NCBI GenBank assembly: GCA_021772465.1
Contig: JAJFLX010000017.1
Coordinates: 134,531 to 198,530 of the forward strand
Length of the DNA stretch: 64,000 bases
Direction: 5' to 3'
Source: Chlamydiota bacterium
GTDB lineage: Bacteria > Chlamydiota > Chlamydiia > Chlamydiales > JAAKFR01
The translations under genes were made by a program, and so were the position numbers. Numbering within the stretch: the stretch's first letter is position 1; each line of letters starts with the position of its first letter. The notes below the pieces were generated by a model. It worked only from the letters and a program-made list of their open reading frames with translations. It did not search any database and had not been told where the DNA came from. Below, in pieces: positions 54,665-56,521 of the stretch.

Positions 54665-54784
54665 GTCGCCCCTGAATAATAGCATTGATCGGGCCCAGAG
54701 CGTGTTTTTGAGAAGCGCCTGAGCGATCAACTCAACGCCAACCATGAGTTGATGATCTTCGCTGAAGTAATGGATTGGGAGACT
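54665..54784 (+). pseudogene. IS5-type (DUF772 N-terminal domain) transposase fragment, repeat copy 1
   Basis: Translates to ...ERVFEKRLSDQLNANHELMIFAEVMDWET, the L-N-P-x-H-P-L...ID-W pattern of DUF772. There is no start codon and a stop lies upstream in frame. 116/120 identical to 56191-56234 plus 56354-56429. Confidence 0.6.
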
Positions 54785-54826
54785 ATATTTCAATTGGGGA
54801 AATTTGAGACATGCTGAGAAAAGTAG

Positions 54827-55021
54827 GCTATTGCAAGTATTCGCAATCGCTCGAGACAAACCAAGGGATCTGGATCGCGAAATGCGACACTATCAATGGT
54901 ATTCAAGTTATCCATGGAGACAGAAAAAAGATGGAGCCGACTGAATGGAGCGATGCTGATTTCCAAGCTTGTAAGCGGAGTGAAATTTCAGGATAGAGAA
55001 GAGGTGAAAAAGGCAGCATAA
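54827..55021 (+). pseudogene. IS256-family (Mutator-type) transposase C-terminal fragment
   Basis: AIASIRNRSRQTKGSGSRNATLSMVFKLSMETEKRWSRLNGAMLISKLVSGVKFQDREEVKKAA* follows the family C-terminus pattern (FATVRHRT.RTKG...MVFKL...W.RL.G...L.KVI.GV.F.DG). Only 64 codons remain. Confidence 0.6.
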
Positions 55022-55372
55022 AATCAACTTTCGAGGATAAGCTAATAGGCTCGAGACACAATTTTTGACAATAGCTCGGTTCCCCTCATCATCGTACTAT
55101 ATCCACTCAGCCCTATGAGGGACCTCTTTTTTTGTAATAAAAAAAAGAGCATGCCTTGCTGGGGCTCTTTTGTTTAAACAAATCTTTATATTTTCAACTG
55201 CTCTAGGGTCCTTTTAAGCCTCTTATGCCCTTTATCTCCCCCGCAACGCAAGTTTACTAAGGTGAGGAGGTCAATCTTTACCAGGATAGGACCACCAACT
55301 GATACGTTCTTAATGAAAAATTAACACTTGTTGTGTATACTGGTTCCAATTCAGTTGAACAGGGAGCAAAAA

Positions 55373-56191
55373 ATGCATGTAAGCTCATGCTTTAATAACA
55401 AAGATTATAATCTAGGCCGGTTCAAAGTTTCTCGTACCGATATCAGTGCACTAGTAGTAGGAGCAGCTTTATTGAGTGTAGGGGCGACTTTTATGCATTT
55501 AACTAATTTACATTCAGATTATTGGTATCTTTCCATGACAGGAGTAATAACCGGCGGCCTTACCCTCGTAGGAGAAATTGCATCAGTCTCTAAAAAAAGT
55601 TTTTTTTCAGGTGCAGACAATACGCGTAGCTCAACTGATTCGAACGTAAACAAATCCTCTGTATCACGTCCTAATTTTTTTGTTTACGCACCAGCAATTC
55701 GACCACTATTTATCAAACATGCTCAACTAACTTTCAACTCTGTCGAAGAAGAACAAGAGTGCAAACAAAAATTAGAAACTTTCGATAAGTGGTATCAAGC
55801 CAACCGATACATTTTTTCAACTATTGAAGAAGATGCGCAAGCAGATCAATTCCATAAACTTATGGTAGACAAACTTTTTGAGGTTACAAGCTCTATCAAT
55901 GCATTACCCGCGGAATTTGATAAAGAAAAAGTAGTTTTAAAAAAGAAATTTATTGAAAATTGTTCGGAATATTTTCTTGGAGCTTTTCGAAAGTCAACTC
56001 AAACAATGGAACCCAAAGCCAAGAAAGAGCCCTTCAAAATTTGCACGAAAAACATCTTTTTTTACCTAACTTCTAAATTTTCTCATAATGGTACCGAATT
56101 AAAGTTCATAGTGGATGAGCTTACGTGGGGATGGCAATTAGTGGGCTCGATTCTGGCACACGGGGGTTGTCGCAGAACCCCTGTTAAGTAG
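55373..56191 (+). CDS. Inc-like protein: bilobed hydrophobic domain followed by a helical, coiled-coil-like C-terminal region
   Basis: ATG 55373 after GGGAGC. Two TM segments ISALVVGAALLSVGATFMHL and YWYLSMTGVITGGLTLVGEIASV are separated by a 6-aa loop. AT-rich (23/60 G+C in two hand-counted 60-nt samples). The stop codon abuts the IS repeat. Confidence 0.6.
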   Translation: MHVSSCFNNKDYNLGRFKVSRTDISALVVGAALLSVGATFMHLTNLHSDYWYLSMTGVITGGLTLVGEIASVSKKSFFSGADNTRSSTDSNVNKSSVSRPNFFVYAPAIRPLFIKHAQLTFNSVEEEQECKQKLETFDKWYQANRYIFSTIEEDAQADQFHKLMVDKLFEVTSSINALPAEFDKEKVVLKKKFIENCSEYFLGAFRKSTQTMEPKAKKEPFKICTKNIFFYLTSKFSHNGTELKFIVDELTWGWQLVGSILAHGGCRRTPVK

Positions 56192-56521
56192 TCGTCCCTG
56201 AATAATAGCATCGATCGGGCCCAGAGCGTGTTTTAAAGGGTGATTTTTACTGCAAGGTTGAGGTAGAATTTGCAAGGGAGTTGAAATTTTAATTCAAAGC
56301 CTTGCAAATTTCTATGAAGTCTAAAAACTCGATCAATCCCAAGATCGTGTTTTTGAGAAGCGCCTGAGTGATCAACTCAACCCCAACCATGAGTTGATGA
56401 TCTTCGCTGAAGTAATGGATTGGGAGACTCTAGAAGCAAAATTTCAAGATCACTTTTCATTGGAAACAGGTAGTCCTGCCAAGCCAGCACGTTTAGTCAT
56501 AGGCGTGATGCTTTTGATATG
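56191..56521 (+). pseudogene. IS5-type (DUF772) transposase fragment, repeat copy 2, split by a 111-bp insertion
   Basis: After the insertion it reads DRVFEKRLSDQLNPNHELMIFAEVMDWETLEAKFQDHFSLETGSPAKPARLVIGVMLLI* and stops at 56519-56521. No DDE catalytic region follows. Confidence 0.6.
56235..56345. mobile_element. 111-bp MITE-like insertion flanked by an 8-bp target-site duplication
   Basis: CGTGTTTT occurs at 56227-56234 and 56346-56353 but only once in the uninterrupted copy (54701-54708). The insert contains the internal inverted repeat tagaatttgcaagg / ccttgcaaatttcta. Confidence 0.65.

What the first reader, a model, noticed from the sequence alone, without database searches (positions are those of the whole stretch)
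54665..56429. Two 97 percent identical direct repeats of an IS5-type fragment bracket a 1.4-kb AT-rich cassette
Segment 54665-54784 and segment 56191-56234 plus 56354-56429 are identical at 116 of 120 positions and lie in the same orientation. Between them sit an IS256-type transposase tail and the Inc-like gene. The left boundaries of the two repeats begin at the same nucleotide (gtcg...), although the upstream sequences are unrelated. Such a structure can arise from duplication of an IS-containing segment or from capture of a gene between two IS copies. It remains a substrate for recombinational loss or amplification of the cassette.
Basis: seen in the sequence. Interest (0 to 1): 0.65.

Follow-up and report, generated by a model that had tools for sequence, protein, structure and literature searches.

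The report
Two decayed left ends of one IS
The two repeats are dead left-end stumps of two copies of one extinct IS5-family insertion sequence, sitting either side of a stump of a second mobile element and an orphan membrane-protein gene in a chlamydia-like genome; this is ordinary genome debris.

Summary
54665-54784 matches 56191-56234 plus 56354-56429 at 116 of 120 positions, in direct orientation. These are the only two copies of the repeat in the window, and they flank 1,406 bp at 38.8% GC (window 47.1%).

Each repeat is the left end of an IS5-family insertion sequence: terminal inverted repeat, leader and the first transposase codons. The shared left boundary is the IS terminus, which explains why the flanks are unrelated.

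The 119 bp that interrupt copy 2 are not an insertion. They are native IS leader, collinear with the leader of a Neochlamydia IS5-family element, and they contain the transposase start codon. Copy 1 lost them by a deletion between two CGTGTTTT octamers.

- Copy 1 stops after about codon 29 and abuts the last ~290 bp of an IS256-family element, whose right inverted repeat is intact.
- Copy 2 has a 1-nt frameshift in an A-run and ends after codon 68.
- No DDE domain, no right end and no close intact parent was found anywhere searched.
- The enclosed 272-aa ORF has an Inc-type bilobed hydrophobic motif but no homologue.

Nothing here is mobile. The only remaining potential is rare homologous deletion; the longest perfect match is 47 nt. 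Interest is low.

The parts
54665..54784 (+). IS5-family relic, copy 1. It holds the left terminal inverted repeat (GTCGCCCCTGAATAATAG...), 44 nt of leader, then transposase codons ~12-39 (RVFEKRLSDQLNANHELMIFAEVMDWET). It lacks 119 nt of leader, including the start codon, and is cut off at 54784.
   Evidence: tblastn with the Neochlamydia transposase, residues 12-40, E=1e-4; alignment.
54785..55077 (+). IS256-family relic, 3' end only. The transposase C-terminal pseudogene shows firm homology over 54827-55018, with its stop codon at 55019-55021 and in-frame stops at 54815 and 54824. The right inverted repeat AGACACAATTTTTGACAATAGCTC lies at 55054-55077.
   Evidence: 58.7% identity to the IS256-family transposase of Protochlamydia naegleriophila plasmid pPNK; 48% over 95 aa, E=2e-20; the pPNK right repeat ATACACAACTTTTGACAATATCTC matches 21 of 24 bases.
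55078..55372 (.). Non-coding AT-rich spacer. It has terminator-like hairpins (55120-55146 seen by eye; 55153-55165 from the scan), a promoter-like site at 55313-55341 and a GGGAG Shine-Dalgarno-like motif before the ORF.
   Evidence: These are consensus matches only.
55373..56191 (+). Orphan ORF of 272 aa. It has an N-terminal bilobed hydrophobic motif (residues ~22-46 and ~50-72, Inc-like). GC is 37.4% and GC3 is 30.5%. Its stop codon TAG (56189-56191) overlaps the first base of IS copy 2.
   Evidence: the only hit among 5.8 billion proteins is itself; no family; not a paralogue of the neighbouring CT529-family gene.
56191..56522 (+). IS5-family relic, copy 2. It holds the left terminal inverted repeat, a complete 123-nt leader, ATG 56314-56316, a 1-nt frameshift in the A5 run 56323-56327, then codons 5-69 (KLDQSQDRVFEKRL...PAKPARLVIGVMLLI) ending at stop 56520-56522. 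Nothing of the transposase remains beyond that.
   Evidence: NF033578, E=1e-16, profile positions 2-59 of 419; 47% to the Neochlamydia S13 transposase, residues 5-68; no further transposase pieces in the window.
56235..56353 (+). The 119 nt present in copy 2 and absent from copy 1. This is native IS leader plus the first codons. It contains a hairpin at 56263-56314 that ends at the start codon, and it is bounded by CGTGTTTT at 56227-56234 and 56346-56353.
   Evidence: collinear with the Neochlamydia IS leader, including CTTGCAAAnTT..CTATGAA; relatives carry 4 residues before KLD..
2618..2668 (+). Probable third trace of the same IS leader and start codon (CAAGacTGAGGTAGAATTTGCAAG...TTCTATGAAGcTgAAAA). 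It lies between the stop of ORF 1570-2613 and the 3' end of tRNA-Leu(CAA).
   Evidence: blastn E=0.006; 18-nt exact core; local score 42 against shuffles averaging 20.9, sd 2.8, maximum 32; the tRNA.
53530..54504 (+). Context: CT529-family inclusion-membrane-protein homologue. It marks the left edge of the 2.7-kb debris-filled gap.
   Evidence: NF052275, E=2e-13, below the curated cut-off.
57226..57888 (+). Context: rplC (ribosomal protein L3), first gene of the rplC-rplD-rplW-rplB run. It marks the right edge of the gap.
   Evidence: TIGR03625, E=2e-75.

Best explanation
Both repeats are left-end stumps of two copies of one now-extinct IS5-family insertion sequence. The two copies lie in the same orientation, about 1.5 kb apart, in the gap between the CT529-family gene and rplC of a chlamydia-like genome.

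Shown:
- The repeat unit begins at the IS terminus and runs through the leader into the transposase N-terminus.
- Copy 2 keeps the native layout: terminal repeat, 123-nt leader, ATG.
- Copy 2 is dead, through a 1-nt loss in an A-run and truncation after codon 68.
- Copy 1 lacks 119 nt of leader, including the ATG, between two CGTGTTTT octamers.
- Copy 1 is fused at 54784/54785 to the last ~290 bp of an IS256-family element.

Inferred:
- The 119-nt loss was a slippage or microhomology deletion.
- The IS5/IS256 fusion came from one deletion that removed the rest of IS5 copy 1 and the 5' three-quarters of a neighbouring IS256.
- The IS has been lost from the lineage.

No transposase, no right end and therefore no mobility remain. 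The only activity still possible is RecA-type recombination between the repeats. That would delete 1,526-1,645 bp, taking out the IS256 stump and the orphan ORF, or amplify the same stretch. It should be inefficient, because the longest perfect tract is 47 nt.

Whether the two IS copies arrived separately or together as the arms of a composite element cannot be decided.
For: Repeat: 116/120 identities, two copies only.

IS5-family N-terminus:
- NF033578, E=1e-16, profile positions 2-59.
- Best annotated relative is the Neochlamydia sp. S13 pS13 transposase, 47% identity. My frameshift-corrected N-terminus aligns from its residue 1.
- In a HMMER scan of 1.84 billion representatives, relatives typically place the first encoded residue (K of KLDQ) at their residue 5. 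That leaves exactly the four codons (MKSK) supplied by ATG 56314 plus one extra A.

The 119 nt are native:
- The DNA alignment to the Neochlamydia IS is collinear from the terminus to the ATG. Leader lengths are 123 and 126 nt, and the motif CTTGCAAAnTT..CTATGAA is conserved.
- CGTGTTTT sits at both deletion edges.

Terminus: GAATAA at positions 10-15 from the first G, as in the E. coli IS5 repeats GGAAGGTGCGAACAAG and GGAAGGTGCGAATAAG.

IS256 stump.

No further transposase pieces or right repeat in the window.

No close parent found. One search shows that at least some annotated proteins of this genome are in the protein database.

An independent read assembly (Logan, SRR15505518) reproduces 54997-56236 at 100% identity, including the ORF/IS junction.
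Against: - No intact copy of the parent IS could be obtained. Its right end, target-site duplication and full length are therefore unknown, and the terminus rests on comparison with distant relatives.
- The bases just upstream of the shared G also match partly (3 of 5), so the true end could lie 2-5 nt further left.
- Pfam gave no hit for either IS fragment, and NCBIfam gave none for the IS256 tail. Those identifications rest on NCBIfam for IS5 and on tblastn.
- I could not search the rest of this genome's DNA for pseudogenised or unannotated full-length copies.
- Independent insertion and joint arrival as a composite element cannot be told apart.
Confidence: 0.82

Rival explanations
1. The region is the relic of a composite transposon. 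Two directly oriented copies of the IS5-family element moved the intervening DNA (the IS256 copy and the AT-rich orphan ORF) into this site as one unit, delivering a foreign membrane-protein gene. The arms then decayed.
For: - The same IS sits on both sides in the same orientation.
- The cargo is a compositional outlier: ORF GC 37.4% and GC3 30.5%, against GC3 of 40-50% in neighbouring genes.
- The ORF has no homologue.
- The block interrupts an otherwise Chlamydia-like gene order, lpxC-fabZ-lpxA-fmt-CT529-rplC.
Against: - Neither arm keeps a right end, so no outer inverted-repeat pair or target-site duplication can be shown.
- The cargo has no donor-side homologue anywhere searched.
- Low GC is also usual for fast-evolving lineage-specific genes and for non-coding DNA.
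- The 3.3% divergence between the arms says nothing either way.
Confidence: 0.2
2. A single IS5 insertion was followed by a non-transpositional duplication of its first ~240 bp, through unequal crossing-over, replication slippage or template switching. Both repeats would then descend from one insertion.
For: The copies are close together, in the same orientation and 96.7% identical.
Against: - The duplicated unit starts exactly at the IS terminus, with unrelated DNA upstream of each copy. A random duplication end-point would not be expected there.
- The material between the copies is not duplicated.
Confidence: 0.08
3. The 119 bp in copy 2 are a small hairpin-bearing mobile element (MITE-like) that inserted into the IS, and copy 1 shows the original state.
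For: - The segment folds into a strong hairpin (z=-2.95).
- It is flanked by a 25-nt imperfect direct repeat, 56211-56234 and 56329-56353, at 20 of 25 positions.
Against: - The segment contains the transposase ATG and first codons.
- It aligns collinearly with the Neochlamydia IS leader, which has the same length.
- Relatives need exactly those four N-terminal codons.
- Copy 1 has no start codon in frame.
- There is no other full copy of the segment in the window.
Confidence: 0.03
4. The arrangement is an assembly artefact: a chimeric or collapsed repeat in a short-read or metagenome assembly.
For: - The source appears to be a draft or metagenome-derived genome. Its contig is 330,531 nt, and the Logan contigs of the same organism are only 1-4 kb.
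- I could not obtain an independent contig across copy 1.
Against: - An independent Logan assembly reproduces 54997-56236 exactly, across the ORF/IS copy 2 junction.
- The two copies differ by four substitutions and a 119-nt indel, and each has its own distinct right-hand junction. A collapsed or duplicated repeat would not produce that.
Confidence: 0.04

Closest known systems
IS5-family insertion sequence of Neochlamydia sp. S13 plasmid pS13 (NZ_AP017978.1, ~46971-48595; transposase WP_052354625.1 / WP_130589559.1)
   Same: - The transposase N-terminus is 47% identical over residues 5-68, and the start matches: MKPIKLDNQQGRLF against MKSKKLDQSQDRVF.
- Leader lengths are nearly the same, 126 against 123 nt.
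- The sequence just before the ATG is conserved.
- The terminus has a similar pattern: GTTTGACATGATTTA against GTCGTCCCTGAATAA.
   Different: - The window copies are stumps of 120 and 332 bp from what was probably a ~1.6-kb element.
- They have no DDE domain and no right end.
- The leader hairpin of the window element is not seen in the Neochlamydia element.
- Divergence is too great for them to be the same IS.
E. coli IS5 (IS5A, NC_000913.3 273955-275149)
   Same: Both belong to the IS5 family. Both have a terminal repeat starting with G and carrying GAA(T/C)AA at positions 10-15.
   Different: - The transposase belongs to a different subgroup. Relatives of the window fragment run to ~420-550 aa, against 326 aa for the annotated insH1 CDS.
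- IS5 has a 68-nt leader.
- Outside the GAATAA motif the ends show no sequence similarity.
IS256-family element of Candidatus Protochlamydia naegleriophila plasmid pPNK (transposase WP_059062636.1)
   Same: The C-terminal ~65 residues are 58.7% identical, and the right inverted repeat matches at 21 of 24 bases.
   Different: Only the last ~290 bp survive in the window. Two stop codons interrupt the frame, and the 5' ~1.1 kb is gone.
Composite transposons with directly repeated IS arms (for example Tn9 with IS1; from general knowledge)
   Same: The same IS in direct orientation on both sides of a passenger gene.
   Different: Here both arms are truncated left ends without transposase or right ends. 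No target-site duplication can be read, and no mobility is possible.

Membership tests
IS5 family insertion sequence | Transposase homologous to IS5-family transposases (N-terminal DNA-binding region) | tested here: met
   NF033578, E=1e-16, profile positions 2-59 of 419. The 61 bits are far below the full-length cut-off of 275 because only 14% of the protein is present. tblastn to annotated IS5-family transposases is also positive. Pfam gave no hit.
IS5 family insertion sequence | DDE catalytic domain | tested here: not met
   tblastn with full-length relatives (L003, L005, Neochlamydia ORF B) finds nothing beyond residue ~69 anywhere in the window. The elements are relics, not functional members.
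IS5 family insertion sequence | Pair of terminal inverted repeats of family type | tested here: inconclusive
   The left end is present in both copies, with GAATAA in the same register as the E. coli IS5 repeats. No right end was found on either strand with up to 3 mismatches.
IS5 family insertion sequence | Short target-site duplication flanking the element | not testable with these tools
   The right ends are deleted in both copies.
IS256 family insertion sequence | Mutator-type transposase | tested here: inconclusive
   The C-terminal ~65-95 residues match annotated IS256-family transposases (E=5e-16; E=2e-20). Pfam and NCBIfam gave no hit for the fragment, and the catalytic core is absent.
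IS256 family insertion sequence | Terminal inverted repeat of family type | tested here: met
   55054-55077 matches the right repeat of the pPNK IS256-family element at 21 of 24 bases. It lies at the same distance after the stop codon, 32 nt here against 26 nt in pPNK. There is no left repeat.
Composite transposon | Two complete, transposition-competent IS copies bounding the passenger, with a target-site duplication outside them | tested here: not met
   Both arms are truncated and have no transposase. The target-site duplication cannot be read.
Chlamydial inclusion membrane (Inc) proteins | Bilobed hydrophobic domain of ~40-60 residues | tested here: met
   The Kyte-Doolittle window averages exceed 1.4 for windows starting at residues 22-28. 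By inspection the two hydrophobic lobes are ~22-46 and ~50-72, separated by a short polar loop.
Chlamydial inclusion membrane (Inc) proteins | Type III secretion and localisation to the inclusion membrane; homology to a known Inc family | tested here: not met
   No Pfam or NCBIfam family and no homologue at all. Secretion and localisation cannot be tested in silico here.

The most novel reading that the evidence does not exclude
The IS5-cargo-IS5 block is the fossil of a composite transposon that imported a lineage-specific Inc-like effector gene into a chlamydial chromosome. The residual 120-bp direct repeats still allow occasional excision or amplification of that gene, giving on/off or copy-number variation of a host-interaction protein within the population.
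Probability: 0.07. Interest if true: 0.4.

Novelty: new member of a known kind. Interest (0 to 1): 0.15.

Why it matters
It matters little beyond annotation. The result shows that this chlamydia-like lineage once hosted an IS5-family and an IS256-family element, both related to those on Neochlamydia and Protochlamydia plasmids. Both have since died out, leaving stumps in a conserved intergenic gap.

The practical points are:
- The 42-82-aa ORFs over these stumps should not be annotated as genes.
- The 272-aa ORF is an orphan, possibly truncated by the IS and possibly foreign.
- The region is a plausible, if weak, site of deletion polymorphism to bear in mind when comparing strains or assemblies.

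Tried and rejected
Searches for an intact parent IS, all negative:
- Exact 45-mer in genome contigs: 0 hits.
- Peptide-pattern scan of genome contigs: only relatives at 46% identity or less, from Mariprofundus, Thiomicrospira and metagenome-assembled genomes.
- 27-mer and peptide scans of metagenome contigs: 0 hits.
- Word-indexed search of 5.8 billion proteins with the IS5 fragment and with the IS256 tail: nothing.
- HMMER against 1.84 billion representatives: best identity 55% or less.

Other negative results:
- Pfam on both IS fragments: no hit.
- NCBIfam on the IS256 tail: no hit.
- blastn of the whole 54500-57225 gap against plasmids: no match.
- Rfam on 54300-57400: only sub-threshold noise.
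- Paralogy between the orphan ORF and the neighbouring CT529-family gene: none.
- Independent contigs over copy 1, looked up through five neighbouring ORFs and genes: not on record.
- The L23 and L3 products were also not on record.
- Paper search for the SRR accessions: nothing.

Considered and rejected:
- The 119 bp as a MITE insertion (see rivals).
- Conservation of the leader hairpin, which is absent from the Neochlamydia element.
- Extension of IS256 homology through the junction into the IS5 part. ELMIFAEVMDWETI resembles ELMTFYDFPAMHWQHI in the same frame. I judge this a chance resemblance, or at most microhomology at the deletion junction. It cannot be tested without the parent IS256.
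Full report
**Observation.** Reading the region and comparing the segments directly confirms the claim. 54665-54784 and 56191-56234 plus 56354-56429 are identical at 116 of 120 positions on the same strand. The repeat finder recovers the same two blocks (D1 and D2), and a blastn self-comparison gives E=9e-33 and 2e-12. Pattern searches with up to 3 mismatches find exactly two copies in the 64-kb window, none on the other strand and none in shuffles. The enclosed 1,406 bp are at 38.8% GC against 47.1% for the window. 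Upstream of the shared G (54665 and 56191), only 3 of the next 5 bases agree, and similarity then disappears.

**What the repeat is.** In the frame that stays open through copy 2, the sequence reads KLDQSQDRVFEKRLSDQLNPNHELMIFAEVMDWETLEAKFQDHFSLETGSPAKPARLVIGVMLLI*.
- This matches NCBIfam NF033578 (IS5 family transposase) at E=1e-16, over profile positions 2-59 of 419. It is therefore the very N-terminus of the transposase. Pfam was silent.
- tblastn against annotated plasmids puts the closest annotated relative in Neochlamydia sp. S13 plasmid pS13, at 47% identity, followed by many 'IS5 family transposase' genes.
- Full-length relatives from genome contigs and the Neochlamydia ORFs find nothing else of this transposase in the window.
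- Copy 2 therefore ends after about codon 68, at stop 56520-56522. Copy 1 ends after about codon 39 of the reconstructed protein, at 54784.

**The 119-bp interruption is native, and copy 1 is the deleted form.** Four lines of evidence agree.
1. The Neochlamydia transposase starts MKPIKLDNQQGRLFKSRFSDELNPNH. In copy 2, ATG 56314-56316 followed by AAG TCT AAA AA-C TCG reads MKSK and then falls out of frame. One extra A in the A5 run 56323-56327 gives MKSKKLDQSQDRVFEKRLSDQLNPNH. tblastn with that reconstruction aligns from residue 1 of the annotated Neochlamydia CDS.
2. In a HMMER scan of 1.84 billion representative proteins, relatives typically align the first encoded residue (K of KLDQ) to their own residue 5. 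That leaves exactly four upstream codons.
3. A DNA alignment of copy 2 with the Neochlamydia element is collinear from the terminus to the ATG. Leaders are 123 and 126 nt, and CTTGCAAAnTT..CTATGAA is conserved at the start codon.
4. Copy 1 has no in-frame start codon.

The missing 119 nt (equivalent to 56235-56353) are bounded in copy 2 by CGTGTTTT at 56227-56234 and 56346-56353. These octamers lie inside a 25-nt imperfect direct repeat. That is the signature of a slippage or microhomology deletion; the mechanism itself is inferred.

**Why both repeats start at the same base.** The shared first base is the IS terminus. From that G the sequence is GTCG(C/T)CCCTGAATAATAG, with GAATAA at positions 10-15. 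The E. coli IS5 ends, read from MG1655, are GGAAGGTGCGAACAAG and GGAAGGTGCGAATAAG, with the same motif in the same register. The Neochlamydia element has GTTTGACATGATTTA and GTTCGACCTGATTTA at its two ends. Two transposition-derived copies of one IS therefore explain identical left boundaries next to unrelated flanks. A random segmental duplication does not.

**What lies between the repeats.**
- From 54785 the frame continues into ...AIASIRNRSRQTKGSGSRNATLSMVFKLSMETEKRWSRLNGAMLISKLVSGVKFQDREEVKKAA*.
- This is 58.7% identical to the C-terminus of the IS256-family transposase of Protochlamydia naegleriophila plasmid pPNK. The wider alignment is 48% over 95 aa, E=2e-20.
- Two stops (54815 and 54824) interrupt the frame.
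- AGACACAATTTTTGACAATAGCTC at 55054-55077 matches the pPNK right inverted repeat at 21 of 24 bases. This stump therefore ends at a genuine IS256-type right end. NCBIfam and Pfam did not detect the short fragment.
- Because IS5 copy 1 abuts the middle of an IS256 gene, the simplest history is one deletion that removed the 3' part of IS5 copy 1 and the 5' three-quarters of a neighbouring IS256. This is inferred.
- The rest of the cassette is a non-coding spacer and a 272-aa ORF (55373-56191).
- The ORF has an N-terminal bilobed hydrophobic motif, GC3 of 30.5%, no family hit, no similarity to the adjacent CT529-family gene and no homologue among 5.8 billion proteins except itself.
- Its stop codon TAG overlaps the first base of IS copy 2, so the IS may have clipped its 3' end. 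This cannot be tested without homologues.

**Context.** The flanking genes are lpxC, fabZ, lpxA, fmt, a CT529-family Inc homologue, then rplC-rplD-rplW-rplB. From my own knowledge, this is the Chlamydia trachomatis CT533-CT525 order. The 2.7 kb between the CT529 homologue and rplC is therefore an intergenic gap that has collected mobile-element debris. The fmt protein and the orphan ORF are each singletons at 90% identity, so the lineage has no close sequenced relative.

**Search for the parent.** No close relative of either IS was found. The negative searches covered the genome collection, metagenomes, the word-indexed protein database, plasmids by DNA and the HMMER representative scan, where the best identity was 55% or less. 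At least some of this genome's annotated proteins are in the protein database. An annotated intact transposase of this IS in the same genome is therefore unlikely, although pseudogenes would be missed.

A probable third trace of the same leader and start codon lies at 2618-2668, next to tRNA-Leu. It has an 18-nt exact core plus a collinear TTCTATGAAG. This suggests an old burst of transposition followed by decay.

**Assembly.** A Logan contig from run SRR15505518 equals window 54997-56236 exactly. It spans the IS256 right end, the ORF and the ORF/IS copy 2 junction. I could not obtain an independent contig over copy 1. The two copies have different substitutions, an indel and different right-hand junctions, which argues against a collapsed or chimeric repeat.

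**How it works now.** It does not transpose: there is no transposase, no DDE domain and no right end. The repeats remain a possible substrate for homologous recombination, but the identity is broken into perfect runs of 47, 37 (split 22+15 by the indel), 16 and 12 nt. Exchange would remove or duplicate 1,526-1,645 bp, including the orphan ORF. From general knowledge of RecA-dependent recombination, tracts this short recombine at low frequency.

**Verdict.** These are ordinary IS relics, new members of the known IS5 and IS256 families, and of low interest. A composite-transposon origin of the orphan Inc-like gene cannot be excluded, but it is not demonstrated.

Noticed in passing
window 2618-2668: A short stretch between the stop of ORF 1570-2613 and the 3' end of tRNA-Leu(CAA) (2678-2763, minus strand). 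It shares an 18-nt exact core (TGAGGTAGAATTTGCAAG) and a collinear TTCTATGAAG with the IS5-type leader and start codon of copy 2. It is probably a third, tiny relic of the same IS beside a tRNA gene.
   Followed up: partly
window 56263-56314: A 51-nt near-perfect hairpin in the IS leader whose 3' arm ends at the transposase ATG (the 119-nt segment folds with z=-2.95). It could sequester the translation start on read-through transcripts, as described for other IS elements. It is not conserved in the Neochlamydia relative.
   Followed up: partly
window 56211-56234 and 56329-56353: An internal 25-nt imperfect direct repeat (20 of 25 positions) within the IS leader. Its right-hand 8 nt (CGTGTTTT) mark the deletion edges in copy 1. 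It could be repeated transposase-binding sites or chance.
   Followed up: no
window 55054-55092: The right inverted repeat of the IS256 relic contains a perfect TTGACA (55065-55070) facing outward toward the orphan ORF, with a weak -10 16 nt later. Terminator-like hairpins lie between it and the ORF, so a hybrid promoter is speculative.
   Followed up: no
window 56189-56191: The stop codon (TAG) of the 272-aa orphan ORF overlaps the first base of IS copy 2. The IS insertion may have truncated the ORF and supplied part of its stop codon.
   Followed up: no
window 54731-54830: tblastn with an IS256 transposase runs in the same frame straight through the IS5/IS256 junction. The IS5 sequence ELMIFAEVMDWETI resembles the IS256 sequence ELMTFYDFPAMHWQHI. 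This is either chance or microhomology used by the deletion that fused the two relics.
   Followed up: partly
window 56523-57225: About 700 bp of non-coding DNA between the end of IS copy 2 and rplC. It has no recognisable gene, RNA family or repeat. It presumably includes the rplC operon promoter plus further unrecognisable debris.
   Followed up: partly
L013 2369-2374 / 4000-4005 and 2915-2925: The Neochlamydia S13 IS5-family element is flanked by TACATA on both sides, a possible 6-bp target-site duplication. Its transposase is split into two ORFs at an A9 run, which is either a frameshift site or decay.
   Followed up: no
protein P0002: A 1,906-aa predicted protein in the representative library matches the 65-aa IS5 N-terminal fragment in 12 separate stretches. 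This is an odd tandem array of this domain, or a mis-predicted ORF over repeated IS ends.
   Followed up: no
window 52527-53459 and 55373-56191: Both the fmt protein and the orphan ORF are singleton clusters at 90% identity among about 15 billion proteins. They were seen only in one NCBI contig (330,531 nt) and in Logan runs SRR15505517 and SRR15505518. The organism is a chlamydia-like lineage with no close sequenced relative.
   Followed up: partly
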